DNA of 57,325 nt, taken from a phage. Location: the NCBI GenBank assembly GCA_025497365.1, contig GCA_025497365.1_4955.1, one strand, 5' to 3'. Below are positions 6,001 to 12,000 of the stretch, one piece after another. Numbering within the stretch: the stretch's first letter is position 1; each line of letters begins with the position of its first letter. The position numbers were made by a program.

Positions 6001-9000
6001 TGATTTTGTAATTTTAACTTTCATCTTCTTTAAACCCTCTATTCATTTGATAACCAGAGTCTAGCCGTTCATCTGTAATCTGTCAAGAATTATTTTAAAT
6101 CTCTGTTACCACCCGTCACCCGTGGTAAACTGTACAGAACAGTTACAAACGGACCGATAACCATGAATAAGTTTACTGGAAATATTCATAATTACCCGCG
6201 CTGGCGTGATGCCTACGCAAATGACGAACGTATCTGGCGAAAAGGTCAGCCACGACCGGATTACAAACAGTGTTACATTGACCGTATTAACCTGTTAAAT
6301 CGTATGCGCACGGATCGGGTAATTGTCCCGGTACTGAAAAAGTATTACGAAACAAACCCGGTAGCGTTTATCCTCGACTGGGCGTTTACTTACGACCCGC
6401 GTAACGTCGGTACTGAGTACCCGCCTAACATGCCTTTCTGCCTTTTCGAACGTCAGATCGACATGGTTCAGTTTGTTTATGAAGCGCTTGAAGACAAAGA
6501 AAAAGGGCTTTGGGAGAAATCAAGGGATTATGGTGCGACCTGGGTAGCCTGTGGTTTGTCCGTGTGGGCGTGGCTGTATCGTCCTGGTTCTTCAGTTGGC
6601 TGGGGATCACGTAAAGAGCAGCTTGTCGATAAACTGGGCGACCCGGATAGTATTTTTGAAAAGATTCGCCAGATTATCCGCGCATTACCACCGGAATTAC
6701 GCCCTGCTGGTCTGCGTGAAAAAGACCATCTGGTTTACATGAAATGTATCAACCCTGAAAATGGTGCGACAATTACTGGTGAAGCTGGCGATAACATCGG
6801 TCGTGGTGGTCGTAAATCTGTTTACTTTCTCGACGAGGCAGCACACGTAGATCGTCCTGAACTGATTGAAGCGTCGTTGTCAGCTAACACCAACGTCCGT
6901 ATTGATATCAGTTCGGTTAATGGCGTTGGTAACGTTTTTTATCGTAATCGTAAAGCTGGTCTGGAATGGGAACCGGGTAAGAAATTACCCCGTGGTAAAT
7001 TGCGTGTAATGGTTCTTGACTGGCGTGATCACCCGGCTAAAGACGATGAATGGTATAAGCGAGAAAAACAATCGTTCGCTGAAAAAGGTTTACAGCATAT
7101 TTTCGCACAGGAAGTTGACCGCGATTATGCCGCTGCCGTTCAGGGTGTGCTGATTAAAGCTGAATGGGTACGTGCTGCTTTTGACGCTTTCCGTGACACA
7201 GAATGGCGCAAAGCTAATGGACTACTTACACCAACAGGTCAACGTATCGCCGGACAGGATGCCGCAGACGGTGGTGAAGACGCAAGTGCGCTGGTAATTG
7301 CTCACGGTGTATTCTTGACACATCTACAACTTGACCACAGGGGCGCTGAACTGGCTGCACCAGGGATGCTGACGATGGCTAATATGCTGGGTGTTGATGA
7401 ATACTGGTACGAAGTTAACGGTGTTGGTACAGGCGTTAAAGTAGCGGCAAATGACCGGAAAGATATTTTACGCTTCCGTGTGCGCCCGTGGTTACCGAAT
7501 GGAAAAGTTGTGGATCCAGGTGGTGATATTATCGGTGGTACGAAACCTGGCGATAAAGACCGTAAATCAAACAAAGATTATTTCTCAAATTATAAAGCAC
7601 AGGCATCGTGGGCGTTACGTCTGCGTTGTCAGCGAATTTATAAATGGTATGTGGAAGGTCAACCACAGGATCCAGACGAAATCATTCTGATTGATCCGTC
7701 ACTGGAAAATGCACAACGGTTAGAATCTGAGTTAAGCCAGCCAACGTATACAAGTAACGGTGCCGGGAAGATTGTGATCGACAAGAAACCAAACGGAAGT
7801 AAGTCACCAAACTTTTTCGATGCTGCGGTTATTGCACTATCACCAAAACGTACCGAATTCGTTGAAGAACCGTTTACTGGTGGTGTGAATCCTGTTGGTA
7901 CGCCTGATTACGGTGACATTTTTTAAACAGTGTGGCGGGATTATTCCCGTCATTTTCTTTTTAATTCTTGACAAATTACATTATAAATGTTTGTAAATTA
8001 TCTGTTAGATTAATGTAACACGTCTATACTCCTGTAGGTAACCAATCGGTTACAGTTAATTAACATTCTCTCACAGGAGTTTCAACATGTCTGACATGAC
8101 TTTAGTTCCCACTGGCGGTTTCGGCGGTGAAGCTGGCGCGGCTGCACTTGGTGGTGGTATCGGCGGTCTTATCGGTTCCTGGTTCGGTAACGGCTGGGGT
8201 GGTGCCGGTGGTTGGGGTGGTCGTGGTATTGGTGCTGCTGAAGGTGTTGTTGTTCAGAACTCTCTGGATACTAACGCTATTCTTCAGGCTATTAATGCGG
8301 CGTCACTGGCTAACATTCAGGGTCAGAATGGTACTAACCTGACTGTTGAACGCTCAGCAGCTTCTACCTATAACGGTCTGACCCAACAAAACACACAAAA
8401 CCTGCTGGCAAACGTTCAAGGTTTTGCAGGTCTGAACACTCAGATTCAGCAGGGTACGAACACTGTGACTAATGCGATCTGTGCGTCTGAAACTGCTGCA
8501 CTGACTCGTTCTTTCCAGGCACAGTTAGCGGCTGAGAAGTGTTGCTGCGAAACCAACCTGAACATTGAACGTCAGGCGGAAGCAACTCGTGCACTGATCC
8601 GTGACCAGTTCGCACAGTCTCAGGCTGTTCTGATTTGTGACCTGAAATCTCAGATTCAAACCCGTGACTTCCAGTTGTCTCAATTGTCACAAACGTCTCA
8701 GTTGGCGTGCAAAATTAACCAGGTCGATCAGCTTATTAACTTCAAGCTGCCTACTCCGCAAACTCCACCGACTGGCTGCTGCTAATTGGTCAACTAAGCG
8801 CCTCTGTATGGGGCGCTTTAACAGGAGATAAGAGTATGCATTACAAACCGTATTACGTTATCAAAAAAGACGATGATGACGATGAAGAGGAAGATATAGA
8901 AATTCATCACCATCATCATTATCACCACGGGCATCACCCGGACACGATGGGAGTATTTCATCATGATAGCTATGCTGGCGAACATGGTTCAGTTATGGCC

Positions 9001-12000
9001 CATGTTAAAGCACGTATGGATAACCCTCCTTCGACTTGGGCGTCGTACCACGATAAGCCCGGCGGGATGATGTCCATTGTTGAAATGGAATATCGCGAAC
9101 TGATGGAAGAAAAAACCGAAGGTTCGACGTCTGGTATTAAAAAAGAGCTAACGGATCTGGCTGCAGCCTGTATCCATGCACTTAAAAAGATGTAACTAAC
9201 AGGAAACCGACATGCAGAATATTAACGCAGGTATGGGTGTCACCCAGTTTAACGGTATGAAACCGCGAAGCACTATTAACATTGGTGGTGTGGAGTGGTC
9301 ATTACGTCGGGATGCCACTGACTCAACAACAATGTTTCCTCACCCGAAGGTAAGCTGGCTTAACGCTGGTTGTGAACCGATGGGTGATGGTCGTTTTCAT
9401 TACTGTTGGATTTTGGGTGTGATTCCCCCGACACCGGGGACAATCGAACGACCTGTTAATGTGATGTATGTTGGTTTCCATCAATTTAAAATTAATATCG
9501 CACCTAATTCAATTAGTCAGGCTGATTTAGACAGGATGCATGTTTATGTCAGCGATACTTCTCATTTCGCTGGTGAATTTGTCAGTAAGTTTTTAGGTAC
9601 AGAACCGGAACCTGTGGAAACCCGTGAAAACATCAGCCCGTGGCCCCCGATGAATGATCCTCGTGAGCAACCAAAAGTAGCCAAAAATAAGGTAAACGAA
9701 GATGACGAAGAATGAAGGGGTAGACAAAGTAGTCGAAAGTCTGGGGTTACGCGCACACGTAATCGTAGACGAAGGTCACAGTCAAGAAGTGATCATGAAG
9801 TCGGCATTTAACGATTTTAAAGCATTGGGTTCAATGAGTGGGATCATGGCAGTGATGACTACCGGGAAATTGAGCCAGCAACAGTTAGACCTGGCGCAAC
9901 GTATCGCTGTGAAAGTAATTGCCGTTTTAGGTCTTAAAGAGTCAGAAAAAGCGTAAAAAAGGGGGGGTTACTATGTGTTGTAGAACATCGTGTTGTCTGG
10001 GAAGTCTTGCTACGCAATTTGGTCTTCTTCAATCACAGATTGCACATACTCAGGCCGTTTTCAGAGGGTTCACCAGTCCGTTCATAGTACCATTACAGTT
10101 TTCCGCGTTCACGTTTAGGCCTTTTGTATTTTACTGATCGACTTTGCCCCGGACAGTTCCGGGGCTTTTTTCAACGTCTGAAAGATGAAAGAACAGCGAG
10201 GCTAACAGAACCTAAACCGAATATGACGGCGTATGTTAGCTGATGTTGAAGTTTCACAAAACCGTAATAATCGCTTTGTAATTCCACGATGTCAAAAGCA
10301 ATTGAAAAACTGGTTACCAGCAACATGATTGAAAGAACACGAATCAGAGCAACTGCTAACCCTATAACACCTTGTTCTTTTTTCTCAGTTGTAATAACGA
10401 CAACAATCATTAACAGAAGTGAGAAAGCAATGTACATGTATTCCATAATTATTAGTCCCGATAAACTTCAGCACACCCATAAATTTTACCAGGGTTGTAA
10501 GCCTGTTCAGCTTGTAAAGCACCCTGACACTGTTCGAACGTCATGATGCGTTCTGTCACAGGTTCAATAGCCACGCCATGCAGAACAAGTACCAGTACAT
10601 AGCCAATTAACATTTTCTTAGAGTCTCCCGCCAGTTCAGTCCGTGTAGGTTTACTTTACATATATGAATAAACGGAATATCAGGATCATACCACGAGCTA
10701 CCGCTAATGTATGGGTCATCTTCCCACGCGTAAACTTCACCATCAGCATCAGTAGTAATAACTGTATAGTTTTCTGGTATAGTTACTGACAATCCAAAAT
10801 ACATTACAGTTTTATAAAGACCCATTTCAACCAGTGTCATTTTACAATCTGGTGCTTCCTCGTGGATATCCCACGATTTACCACAATGCGAACATTGATA
10901 TTCATCATTACAACGAATAGCGTTTACATGATTCATGATTATTCTCCTGTTATTCAGTTGACTAAGTAATAAATGTTATCACGGGCCAATTCATCAGCGT
11001 CTTCCTGACATTCGATTAAGGTGTTATCGTCACGCCATTCTTTAGCACATTCACGCGCTTGTTTACGACGTTTTTTCTTACTGTTACGAAGGTCTAAAAA
11101 TATTTTTAATTCTTTATCATAAGCTCTTACCATACGTTTCATTGTACTTTTCATAATTCAAAACCCCTTACTTTTAGCAATTTGTTGTGCACGTTTTTTA
11201 GTGTGACCAGCAGCAATTAAGCGTTTAATTTCGGCTTTACGGCGTACAAAGTGATCACTGCGTGAATTTTCAACCCACGACTGACTAATGTTTCTTGGAT
11301 TCATAATTCTATAGCCTTTGTCAGATATGAATGTTTCAGAACTTCACAAATTGTGTCATAATATTCAAATGTAACAGCAATAGTGTCAGCCGTTCGCTGA
11401 TAGAAAAGAAAACCCTGATCATCCAATTGTTCAAGTATTTCAATTTCTTCACTTGAACAATTACCGGAAATTATTTTCCCACCATTCAATACACAGTGAA
11501 GAATGAAAGGTAATAAACGTAACTCATGTTTGGTTAACTCGCGTTTAGTTTTAAACTGATATAATTGTTTCAGTTCATCGGTAACCATTCCACGGTGTTC
11601 TGGTTTTACTGGTATTAACATGTTCATCACTCCTTTCATTTATAATAAAGTTCTTTTTCAAGCCTGATGATTTCTTCTTTCAACCACGAAAGTTCTAAAA
11701 GAGTTTGTTTACCCCACGCCATCACTTCGGCATACCGTTTACACTCATAACTGTGTTTTTTACGCTCGTAACAAGTAAGATGTCGCTGATGGCATGTGCT
11801 ATTTAAAAGGTGAAACCTTATATTTACACTAACGCTGTTTTCAATTAAATCATCATTTATGCAATCGTTTACATTGCGCCAGTCTTGTCGCGTTTTTTAG
11901 TGTGACCAGCAGCAATTAAGCGTTTTTCTACTTGGTCATTATAAGTTTTTAAAAGTTCGTCGCGCATTACTCGACATGTTTCACACGGGCATTTCATAAC

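What the first reader, a model, noticed from the sequence alone, without database searches (positions are those of the whole stretch)
7955..10171. Gly/Trp-rich protein ending in Cys-Cys, poly-His protein and Cys-rich mini-protein in one transcription unit
A promoter-driven plus-strand unit between terminase and portal encodes (i) a 232-aa protein with an aromatic-glycine N-terminus, a Q/N/T-rich body, a CCC triplet and a C-terminal TGCC; (ii) a 119-aa protein with an acidic run followed by HHHHHYHHGHH; and (iii) after a GGGGGGG ribosome-binding site, a 54-codon ORF beginning MCCRTSCC. Gly-rich sequences of this kind resemble microcin/colicin-like or structural low-complexity proteins; poly-His and Cys-rich proteins suggest metal binding. 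I do not recognise this combination in a phage.
Basis: seen in the sequence. Interest (0 to 1): 0.6.

Follow-up and report, generated by a model that had tools for sequence, protein, structure and literature searches.

The report
Conserved uncharacterised phage accessory gene cassette
The three odd proteins are real and belong to a five-gene accessory cassette (plus a neighbouring membrane-protein gene) carried by many gut-bacterial phages, whose very highly expressed, dispensable first gene has a membrane-inserting glycine motif; nobody knows what the cassette does.

Summary
All three ORFs are at the stated coordinates, between the terminase terminator and a strong bidirectional terminator.

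A convergent 91-aa, 3-TMD membrane-protein gene (10171-10446) co-travels with the unit.

The window is a 9NA-like (Sashavirus/Nonanavirus) coliphage. The four-gene core recurs, in the same order, in at least six phage groups at different genome positions.

- **g1 (Gly-rich):** it has no Pfam, NCBIfam or PADLOC family. It carries a (GxxxG)5 glycine zipper, a predicted long Q/N-rich helix and an almost invariant CCC. Its codon adaptation is second only to the major capsid gene. It is deleted, frameshifted or pseudogenised in several phages, so it is dispensable.
- **g2 (poly-His):** it probably has a MazG-like NTP-pyrophosphohydrolase fold. The His run is lineage-specific.
- **g5 (54 codons):** it is a real gene, with dN/dS 0.07.

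A microcin- or colicin-like reading is not supported. Metal binding is not supported as the family's defining feature.

My best guess, at low to moderate confidence, is an accessory module that acts on the host envelope. Function is unknown and can be tested in BASEL phages.

The parts
7932..7953 (+). Rho-independent terminator of the terminase large-subunit gene; it marks the upstream boundary of the unit
   Evidence: 9-bp stem plus T-run, -14.5 kcal/mol, z -5.1. The same site is annotated as a terminator in AVIO78A.
7968..7997 (+). Candidate sigma-70-type promoter (TTGACA, N18, TGTAAA); weak -10
   Evidence: Read from the sequence. Annotated as a promoter in AVIO78A. Not reported by the consensus scan.
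8025..8053 (+). Conserved -10-like hexamer TATACT, then the palindrome GTAACCAATCGGTTAC. It may be an operator or a 5' stabilising stem-loop.
   Evidence: conserved as TATACT/TATGCT/CATACT plus CGTAAC-N6-GTTACA in Sashavirus, Seuratvirus and Hanrivervirus; the only perfect copy in the window; hairpin -7.2 kcal/mol.
8087..8785 (+). g1: 232-aa protein with a glycine zipper, a Q/N-rich helical body and a CCC triplet; very highly expressed (RBS AGGAG at 8075-8079)
   Evidence: (phrog_9288).
8796..8819 (+). Stable hairpin after g1 with a short U tract; a partial terminator or 3' stabiliser
   Evidence: -17.7 kcal/mol, z -3.6. Annotated as a terminator in Sasha, Sergei and AVIO78A.
8836..9195 (+). 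g2: 119 aa. An acidic and poly-His N-terminal extension, followed by a conserved MazG-like helical domain (E85xxE88...E104xxD107).
   Evidence: phrog_9157.
9212..9715 (+). g3: 167 aa. A confidently predicted beta-sheet plus two-helix domain with no known fold, and an acidic, Pro-rich tail.
9702..9956 (+). g4: 84-aa protein that overlaps g3 by 14 nt; the overlap suggests translational coupling
   Evidence: phrog_7239; dN/dS 0.042.
9961..10137 (+). G7 ribosome-binding site (9961-9967) and g5, a 54-aa Cys-rich, Phe/Pro-rich protein (9973-10137)
   Evidence: (dN/dS 0.069; 21 of 26 changes at codon position 3). Annotated as a CDS in 9NA, Greed and Bas82.
10146..10171 (.). Bidirectional intrinsic terminator shared by the cassette and the convergent gene
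   Evidence: -17.2 kcal/mol, z -4.2.
10171..10446 (-). g6: convergent 91-aa membrane protein with three TMDs that co-travels with the cassette
   Evidence: homologous in Sasha and 9NA (87-98%), Seuratvirus (52-53%) and eiAU (43%). TMD annotation in Sasha.

Best explanation
This is a real, horizontally mobile accessory module of tailed phages. In this 9NA-like coliphage it has five co-directional genes (g1-g5) plus a convergent small 3-TMD membrane-protein gene (g6).

**g1** is made in capsid-like amounts. It carries an N-terminal glycine zipper, (GxxxG)5 flanked by Trp and Phe. Distant relatives have a plain hydrophobic transmembrane helix at the same position. I infer that this segment inserts g1 into a membrane and oligomerises it. 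The long Q/N-rich helical body, with its invariant CCC and (in this lineage) a C-terminal CC, would then form a cross-linkable layer or rod on one face of the membrane.

**g2** is a cytoplasmic protein with a MazG-like nucleotide-pyrophosphohydrolase fold. Its poly-His and acidic head is a lineage-specific add-on. **g3** and **g4** are cytoplasmic partners of unknown fold or function. **g5** is a genuine small Cys-rich protein that may pair with the g1 Cys clusters.

The most likely role is a non-essential, envelope-directed function late in infection. Candidates are exclusion of superinfecting phage, protection of progeny from debris, or tuning of membrane integrity and lysis.

*Shown:* gene reality, conservation, mobility, dispensability, the expression signature and the motifs.
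*Inferred:* membrane insertion, the timing, and the biological role.
For: **Module conservation.** g1-g4 occur in the same order in Sashavirus/Nonanavirus, Segzyvirus, Seuratvirus, Hanrivervirus, PY100 and Eiauvirus, at different genome positions. 177 phage records hold a g1 relative. g6 co-travels in three genera.

**Expression.**
- g1 CAI is 0.562, second of 59 ORFs after the major capsid gene at 0.585.
- g1 exceeds g2-g4 and its neighbours in all seven lineages tested.
- g1 has its own RBS and its own downstream hairpin.

**Membrane-active N-terminus.**
- Gly at 22, 26, 30, 34, 38 and 42.
- A zipper of at least 4 Gly in 115 of 120 close relatives, and of at least 3 in 63 of 71 distant ones.
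- 14 of 71 distant relatives have a segment with Kyte-Doolittle hydropathy of at least 1.6, such as WLWIIVVFALLFGW, at the same place.

**Body of g1.** CCC is present in 119 of 120 close and 61 of 71 distant relatives. AlphaFold2 gives residues 1-61 as disordered and 62-220 as one helix, with pLDDT 70-93.

**Genome context.** g1 lies directly after holin and lysis genes in crAss-like cr109_1 and in bajarodcaudo virus 5, and at the end of tail-fibre operons elsewhere.

**Dispensability.**
- 9NA has a deletion that fuses g1 codon 47 to g3.
- AVIO78A carries a frameshift, and SE24 a pseudogene.
- Isolates hold many 105-127-aa fragments.

**g2 as MazG-like.** The family profile hits AF_0060 at E 2.2e-4. 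AF_0060 itself matches Pfam MazG at E 4.6e-7. hhalign without the His tag gives 53% probability, E 1.3e-4.

**g5 as a real gene.**
Against: - There is no experimental datum on localisation, timing or phenotype.
- The enterobacterial glycine-rich segment is only weakly hydrophobic (maximum 19-residue Kyte-Doolittle mean 1.14), so it is not a classical TM helix.
- g2-g5 have no signal peptides, so if the products act together they act in the cytoplasm.
- The helical body shows no 3.5- or 3.67-residue hydrophobic periodicity, so 'coiled-coil rod' is not established. The AlphaFold2 pTM is only 0.27.
- The phage already has a full holin/endolysin/Rz/Rz1 lysis cassette elsewhere.
- Capsid-like abundance is unusual for a membrane protein and would equally suit a virion decoration protein.
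- The second MazG motif (ExxD) becomes ExxH or NxxH in divergent g2 relatives, and Pfam MazG does not hit g2 directly.
Confidence: 0.4

Rival explanations
1. g1 is a non-essential virion component, such as a head or tail decoration fibre, made in capsid-like amounts. The Cys residues would cross-link it after release, and g2-g5 would be unrelated passengers or assembly helpers.
For: - CAI equals that of the major capsid gene.
- The cassette is co-oriented with, and directly downstream of, tail-fibre or coat genes in Seuratvirus, Hanrivervirus, Eiauvirus, Epseptimavirus and Segzyvirus.
- A weak hit to phrog_15175 'virion structural protein' (E 4.6e-4).
- Dispensability is typical of decoration proteins.
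- crAss-like homologues are annotated 'viral fiber'.
Against: - In Clostridia-type relatives the gene lies after holin/endolysin or next to the integrase, outside the structural modules.
- A glycine zipper or hydrophobic TM segment is unexpected in a soluble capsid decoration protein.
- No solved virion protein matched.
- No published virion proteome that I could read lists it.
Confidence: 0.2
2. The cassette builds a cytoplasmic self-assembling matrix or condensate. On this reading g1 is keratin-like, with a Gly/aromatic head, a helical body and Cys cross-links; g5 is a Cys-rich partner; and g2 is a charged low-complexity protein with a nucleotide-hydrolase fold. The matrix would organise or protect replication or assembly.
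For: - Low-complexity Gly/aromatic, acidic/His, R/Y/G-rich and Q-rich proteins recur around g1 relatives in very different phages.
- g2-g5 lack export signals.
- The Cys clusters are conserved.
- Expression is very high.
Against: - There is no precedent in small siphoviruses.
- Disulfides do not form in the reducing cytoplasm.
- Distant homologues have plain hydrophobic TM-like helices.
- g6 is an integral membrane protein.
Confidence: 0.13
3. The genes are functionally unrelated morons that merely share an insertion hot spot and a transcript. On this reading g1 alone is the interesting gene, and g2 is a stand-alone MazG-like house-cleaning or ppGpp-degrading enzyme.
For: - There is a hairpin terminator between g1 and g2.
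- T5-like phages carry only g1, and many distant relatives have g1 without detectable g2-g4 (71 of 94 loci).
- 9NA keeps g3-g5 without g1 and g2.
Against: - g1-g4 keep the same order and spacing in six otherwise unrelated phage groups.
- g2- and g3-like genes still follow g1 in much more divergent contigs such as L015-L017.
Confidence: 0.15
4. One reading: a microcin- or colicin-like antimicrobial (g1) together with metal-binding proteins (the His-rich g2 and the Cys-rich g5).
For: - Gly-rich hydrophobic N-termini occur in class II microcins, and Gly-rich T domains occur in colicins (my own knowledge).
- His runs and CC motifs bind Ni and Zn in proteins such as Hpn (my own knowledge).
- Both kinds of motif are present here.
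Against: - There is no double-glycine leader, exporter, immunity or colicin domain, and no Pfam, NCBIfam or PADLOC hit.
- g1 relatives turn up only in phages and prophage-like clusters. The scan of 185,579 bacterial and archaeal genomes with the two close-relative peptide patterns found none; the Clostridia relatives found later lie in such clusters.
- The His run and the terminal CC are not conserved across the families.
- Killing neighbouring potential hosts gives a lytic phage no obvious benefit.
Confidence: 0.04

Closest known systems
MazG-like all-alpha NTP pyrophosphohydrolases (Pfam PF03819; solved relative AF_0060, PDB 2p06)
   Same: The conserved C-terminal domain of g2 aligns over about 56-90 residues to AF_0060. 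The EXXE...EXXD carboxylates are in register (E85, E88, E104, D107). Phages commonly carry MazG-like genes (my own knowledge).
   Different: g2 is shorter. Pfam MazG does not reach it. The second motif is ExxH in divergent relatives. It also carries a variable acidic/poly-His or basic N-terminal extension. No activity has been tested.
Transmembrane glycine-zipper proteins and viral fusion peptides (for example influenza HA2)
   Same: g1 has a (GxxxG)n face with interspersed Trp and Phe, followed by a Q/N/T-rich helix. The broad family profile places influenza HA2 chains as its top five PDB hits, aligned from the fusion peptide onwards (E 0.006-0.07).
   Different: hhalign gives only 1.8% probability, and the enterobacterial profile does not retrieve HA2. 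g1 has no heptad periodicity and no C-terminal TM anchor. The resemblance is motif-level analogy, not homology.
Phage spanins (Rz-type i-spanin)
   Same: Both have an N-terminal membrane segment, a long helical domain, conserved Cys and an association with lysis genes in some phages.
   Different: There is no o-spanin partner. A separate Rz/Rz1 pair exists in this phage type. Relatives occur in phages of Gram-positive Clostridia. g1 is far more highly expressed and is dispensable.
Receptor-masking and superinfection-exclusion genes next to receptor-binding genes (T5 llp, T1-type cor, lactococcal sie)
   Same: They are accessory, non-essential envelope proteins, encoded beside tail-fibre genes or between integrase and repressor (positions; comparison from my own knowledge).
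   Different: There is no sequence or structural similarity and no lipobox or signal peptide. No exclusion phenotype is known.
His- and Cys-rich metal-storage proteins (Helicobacter Hpn)
   Same: Both have a poly-His run and GCC-type motifs (comparison from my own knowledge).
   Different: The two motifs sit on different proteins here, and neither is conserved across its family.

Membership tests
Class II microcin / colicin-like bacteriocin (g1) | Double-glycine leader with a dedicated exporter and immunity gene; or colicin T-R-C domains with immunity and lysis genes | tested here: not met
   The N-terminus is MSDMTLVPTGG with no leader consensus. The neighbours are g2-g6, none of them an ABC exporter or immunity gene. 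No Pfam, NCBIfam or PADLOC hit.
Class II microcin / colicin-like bacteriocin (g1) | Encoded by bacteria or plasmids | tested here: not met
   The close-relative peptide patterns found no relative in 185,579 species genomes. All hits are phages or prophage-like clusters.
MazG-like NTP pyrophosphohydrolase (g2) | Significant match to the MazG or PRA-PH profile, or to a solved family member | tested here: inconclusive
   Pfam gave no hit for the window protein. PRA-PH scored E 0.016 for the Greed homologue. AF_0060 scored E 2.2e-4. hhalign gave 53% probability.
MazG-like NTP pyrophosphohydrolase (g2) | EXXE(12-28)EXXD metal-binding carboxylates | tested here: inconclusive
   E85 and E88 are invariant and E104 nearly so. 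D107 is D or E in most relatives but H in the divergent ones.
MazG-like NTP pyrophosphohydrolase (g2) | Hydrolysis of (d)NTP to (d)NMP plus PPi | not testable with these tools
   Needs an enzyme assay.
Glycine-zipper membrane segment (g1 N-terminus) | At least three consecutive GxxxG on one helical face | tested here: met
   G22, G26, G30, G34, G38 and G42 in the window protein. At least 4 in 115 of 120 close relatives, and at least 3 in 63 of 71 distant relatives.
Glycine-zipper membrane segment (g1 N-terminus) | Actual membrane insertion | not testable with these tools
   Hydropathy is only 1.14 here and at least 1.6 in 14 of 71 distant relatives. Needs fractionation.
Class I viral fusion protein (HA2-like) | Homology to the HA2 or spike S2 core | tested here: not met
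   HMMER E 0.006 with the broad profile only. No hit with the close profile. hhalign probability 1.8%.
Class I viral fusion protein (HA2-like) | Heptad-repeat coiled coil and a C-terminal TM anchor | tested here: not met
   No 3.5-residue periodicity. The C-terminus is the Pro-rich ...TGCC with no TM.
Spanin (i-spanin) | Paired o-spanin lipoprotein gene and a role as the only outer-membrane disruptor | tested here: not met
   No lipobox gene in the cassette. A separate Rz/Rz1 pair is annotated in the 98%-identical Bas82. Homologues occur in Clostridia phages.
Virion structural or decoration protein (g1) | Detected in purified virions, or homologous to a known virion protein | tested here: inconclusive
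   Only a weak phrog_15175 hit (E 4.6e-4). No PDB or BFVD match for g1. No virion proteome that I could read lists it.
His-rich metal-binding protein (g2) | The His-rich tract is conserved as the functional core | tested here: not met
   The His run is absent from PY100, KarlJaspers and many other homologues. Only the C-terminal domain is conserved.

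The most novel reading that the evidence does not exclude
g1 founds a previously unrecognised, cross-phylum family of phage membrane-remodelling or fusogen-like proteins. It is found in phages of Enterobacterales, Clostridia and Bacteroidales crAss-like phages. The protein would insert through a fusion-peptide-like glycine zipper, be produced in capsid-like amounts, and be locked by Cys clusters, in this lineage together with the Cys-rich mini-protein g5. 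With the MazG-like g2, g3, g4 and the small membrane protein g6, it would form a new kind of late envelope-control system, distinct from holins, spanins and known exclusion proteins.
Probability: 0.15. Interest if true: 0.8.

Novelty: new variant of a known kind. Interest (0 to 1): 0.5.

Why it matters
One of the two most codon-optimised genes of this phage has no known function. It belongs to a cassette shared by at least six groups of enterobacterial phages, including T1-like, Queuovirinae and 9NA-like phages used in therapy and in the BASEL model collection. More distant relatives occur in gut Clostridia prophages and in crAss-like phages.

Such an expensive yet dispensable gene must pay for itself in nature. 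Working out what it does could reveal a new way for phages to manipulate the cell envelope. It might instead reveal a new virion accessory.

The question is directly tractable. Natural knock-outs already exist (9NA, AVIO78A, JakobBernoulli, SeppeHuegi), alongside near-isogenic intact relatives on E. coli K-12.

Tried and rejected
**Family libraries.** Pfam, NCBIfam and PADLOC scans of all six proteins gave nothing meaningful. PHROGs returned only families of unknown function.

**RNA.** Rfam on 7800-10500 gave only sub-threshold hits. The 32.6-bit STnc480 match (gathering score 72) is the terminator hairpin, so the g5 region is not a known RNA.

**Structure searches.**
- afdb50 was unavailable.
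- PDB sequence searches for g3 and g4: nothing.

**HA2 resemblance of g1.** I followed it up and downgraded it. hhalign gives 1.8%, and the close-relative profile finds no HA2.

**Coiled coil.** Hydrophobic periodicity analysis found neither a heptad nor a hendecad signal.

**Spanin or primary lysis role.** Rejected, because a full lysis cassette exists elsewhere.

**Bacterial homologues of the enterobacterial g1.** None found.

**Literature.**
- The 9NA-like genomics paper and the PY100 virion-proteome paper are not held.
- The BASEL, 9g, AVIO78A and TLS papers say nothing about these genes.
- The 'putative sugar-binding protein' and 'lateral tail fiber chaperone' labels in some records have no support that I could find.

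**Technical failure.** The search for related loci with the broad alignment failed because no conserved stretch was available.

Full report
**What the window is**

The region 7900-10250 is 98-99% identical to Sashavirus BDX09P1, Escherichia phage vB_EcoS_PJ16 and KarinMuster (Bas82). It is about 86% identical to Salmonella phages Sasha, Sergei and 9NA. The window is therefore a 9NA-like (Sashavirus/Nonanavirus) virulent siphovirus. The large terminase lies at 6163-7926 and the portal gene at 12205-13560.

**Checking the observation**

All three ORFs exist as described:
- g1: 8087-8785, 232 aa
- g2: 8836-9195, 119 aa, with DDDDDEEED followed by HHHHHYHHGHH
- the 54-codon ORF (g5): 9973-10137, starting MCCRTSCC, behind a G7 run at 9961-9967

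The unit is bounded by the terL terminator (7932-7953) and a strong bidirectional terminator (10146-10165).

g3 is at 9212-9715 (167 aa). g4 is at 9702-9956 (84 aa) and overlaps g3 by 14 nt.

A stable hairpin with a short U tract follows g1 (8796-8819, -17.7 kcal/mol). It is annotated as a terminator in relatives.

The promoter is not secure. TTGACA at 7968-7973 has a poor -10, and the scan found no plus-strand promoter. What is conserved across Sashavirus, Seuratvirus and Hanrivervirus is a -10-like TATACT/TATGCT followed by CGTAAC-N6-GTTACA (window 8025-8053). This could be an operator or a 5' stabilising stem-loop; that reading is inference.

**The genes are real**

Nei-Gojobori counts against Sasha give the following dN/dS values:

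| gene | dN/dS |
|---|---|
| g1 | 0.175 |
| g2 | 0.150 |
| g3 | 0.039 |
| g4 | 0.042 |
| g5 | 0.069 |

In g5, 21 of 26 substitutions fall on third codon positions, and the two other frames show pN above pS. The g5 N-terminus, MC(C/G)..CCLGSPATQFGLLQSQIA, is conserved in Seuratvirus phages yong3 and Greed. The ORF is annotated in 9NA, Greed and Bas82. Rfam finds no RNA family there. The 'no translation of the small ORF' criterion for refutation is therefore not met, as far as sequence evidence can tell.

**A mobile cassette**

The same four genes, in the same order and with similar sizes (about 230, 120, 165 and 85 aa), occur at different genome positions:
- between terL and portal in Sashavirus/Nonanavirus
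- after the coat gene in Segzyvirus
- directly after the tail-fibre genes in Seuratvirus, Hanrivervirus and Eiauvirus
- as an isolated rightward unit in Yersinia phage PY100 (ORF29-32)

T5-like Epseptimavirus phages carry only a decayed g1 after their tail-fibre gene. 177 phage records hold a g1 relative.

g5 is found only in Sashavirus/Nonanavirus and Seuratvirus.

The convergent 91-aa 3-TMD membrane protein at 10171-10446 is homologous in Sasha and 9NA, Seuratvirus and eiAU. It therefore co-travels with the cassette.

**g1**

*Known families.* None matches. Pfam, NCBIfam and PADLOC are empty, and PHROGs gives phrog_9288 and phrog_16490, both of unknown function. An exhaustive profile search of 1.84 billion representatives finds only 120 clusters. 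Most are 200-290-aa proteins with the same architecture.

*Conserved features*:
- an N-terminal MxDMxLxP motif
- a glycine zipper; in the window protein Gly sits at 22, 26, 30, 34, 38 and 42, with W32, F33, W37 and W43
- QGFxGLN repeats
- a CCC triplet, in 119 of 120 close and 61 of 71 distant relatives
- an LCDxK motif

*Predicted structure.* AlphaFold2 with 47 homologues predicts residues 1-61 as disordered and a single helix over 62-220 (pLDDT 70-93, pTM 0.27). I found no heptad or hendecad hydrophobic periodicity. 'Helical' is supported; 'coiled coil' is not.

*Expression.* g1 has the second-highest codon adaptation index of 59 ORFs: 0.562, against 0.585 for the major capsid gene and 0.18-0.38 for g2-g5. 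The same contrast holds in all seven lineages tested.

*Dispensability.*
- 9NA has a deletion that fuses g1 codon 47 to g3.
- AVIO78A has an out-of-frame deletion of about 40 nt in the GGT-rich stretch, and 536P12 has an in-frame one.
- Many database members are 105-127-aa fragments, including those in BASEL phages JakobBernoulli and SeppeHuegi.

**Distant relatives of g1**

More divergent members replace the glycine zipper with a plainly hydrophobic helix, such as WLWIIVVFALLFGW or WWWIWIILIFFCW. They end in Cys/Gly-rich tails such as GCGCNTGCGC.

They occur in prophage-like clusters of Lachnospiraceae, Oscillospiraceae and other Clostridia, and in crAss-like phages. In crAss-like cr109_1 and in bajarodcaudo virus 5 the gene lies just downstream of holin and lysis genes. 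In another contig it sits between a serine recombinase and a small HEXXH protein.

With peptide patterns from the close relatives, no relative was found in 185,579 bacterial species genomes.

**The influenza HA2 lead**

The broad family profile places influenza HA2 chains as its top five PDB hits, aligned from the fusion peptide onwards (E 0.006-0.07). However, hhalign gives 1.8% probability, and the close-relative profile does not retrieve HA2. I treat this as a motif-level analogy only: a GxxxG ridge with aromatic residues followed by a Q/N-rich helix.

**g2**

The His run and the acidic run are lineage-specific. They are absent from PY100, KarlJaspers and many others, which have other N-terminal extensions.

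The conserved core is ...PPxTWxxY...IVEMEYxELMxxK...KELTDLAAAC. Profiles of 7 and of 30 homologues both hit PDB 2p06 (AF_0060) at E about 2e-4. AF_0060 itself matches Pfam MazG at E 4.6e-7. hhalign against AF_0060 without its His tag gives 53% probability and E 1.3e-4 over 56 columns.

E85 and E88 are invariant and E104 nearly so. D107 is replaced by His in the most divergent relatives. A MazG-like fold is probable. Catalytic activity is unproven.

**g3 and g4**

**Interpretation**

The cassette is a conserved, mobile, non-essential accessory module.

Four observations point to an envelope-directed accessory function:
1. the membrane-type N-terminus of g1
2. the co-travelling integral membrane protein g6
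3. the position beside lysis or tail-fibre genes
4. the dispensability of g1

I give this about 0.4 confidence. It is not the primary lysis system, because the 98%-identical Bas82 has holin, endolysin, Rz and Rz1 elsewhere.

The main rival is a dispensable virion decoration or fibre. Equal codon adaptation to the capsid gene and the late-operon context favour it. The placement outside structural modules in Clostridia-type relatives, and the TM-like segment, count against it.

A microcin- or colicin-like reading and a metal-binding reading are poorly supported.

**Known versus new**

The genes are present in many deposited genomes but are annotated only as 'hypothetical'. A few carry labels ('lateral tail fiber chaperone', 'putative sugar-binding protein') for which I found no support. 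No paper I could read discusses them.

**Verdict**

This is a real, uncharacterised module. Its components resemble known kinds (a glycine-zipper membrane protein, a MazG-like fold, a small membrane protein), but its biology is unknown. It is moderately interesting and readily testable in BASEL phages.

Noticed in passing
window 10171-10446 (minus strand): The convergent 91-aa protein with three TMDs and a short basic C-terminus is homologous next to the cassette in Sasha/9NA, Seuratvirus (Greed, yong3) and Eiauvirus eiAU, although the other flanking genes differ. It is holin-like in size and topology but is not in the lysis cassette.
   Followed up: partly
window 8025-8053: A -10-like TATACT followed by the palindrome GTAACCAATCGGTTAC lies in the g1 leader. 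The motif CGTAAC-N6-GTTACA is conserved in Sashavirus, Seuratvirus and Hanrivervirus leaders and is the only perfect copy in the window. The stem sequence is conserved rather than co-varying, which suggests a protein-binding site or a fixed 5' hairpin.
   Followed up: partly
window 8087-8202: The first 116 nt of g1 are identical between this phage and Sasha, although the gene-wide synonymous divergence is 0.37. This suggests either a recent recombination tract or nucleotide-level constraint at the 5' end.
   Followed up: no
window 8180-8230; L002, L003, L011: The GGT-rich DNA that encodes the glycine zipper is a deletion hot spot. The 9NA deletion, an out-of-frame deletion in AVIO78A and an in-frame deletion in 536P12 all start there. 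Many database copies of g1 are 105-127-aa fragments, including those in BASEL phages JakobBernoulli and SeppeHuegi.
   Followed up: partly
L009 4752-5348 (Salmonella phage SE24, T5-like): The g1 homologue downstream of the L-shaped tail-fibre gene is a pseudogene, with an internal stop and an A-run frameshift at EKKKKYCCE. tblastn shows the same partial coverage in many Epseptimavirus genomes.
   Followed up: partly
L032 3951-7296; L096 5159-9812; L107 5121-8526; L123 5061-8291: Clostridia prophage and gut-phage relatives of g1 sit in a conserved cluster of low-complexity proteins. In order, these are a Q-rich protein of about 175 aa, a Q/M-rich protein of about 80 aa, the g1-like protein, a beta-rich protein of about 140 aa (phrog_20016; Cys-rich in some versions), and a charged R/D/E/Y/G-rich protein of 210-330 aa. 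In three of the four loci (L032, L096, L107) a small HEXXH protein lies further downstream. All are of unknown function.
   Followed up: partly
L122 5096-5701 (crAss-like cr109_1 gp65): The gene just upstream of the g1-like gene encodes a protein with an acidic run and an R/Y/G-rich tail, reminiscent of the low-complexity head of g2. It is annotated 'RNA polymerase sigma factor/ubiquitin-like protein'. I did not test any relationship to g2.
   Followed up: no
window 9702-9715: g4 starts 14 nt before the g3 stop codon, which suggests translational coupling. The same overlap is kept in Sasha, Greed, yong3, KarlJaspers and eiAU.
   Followed up: no
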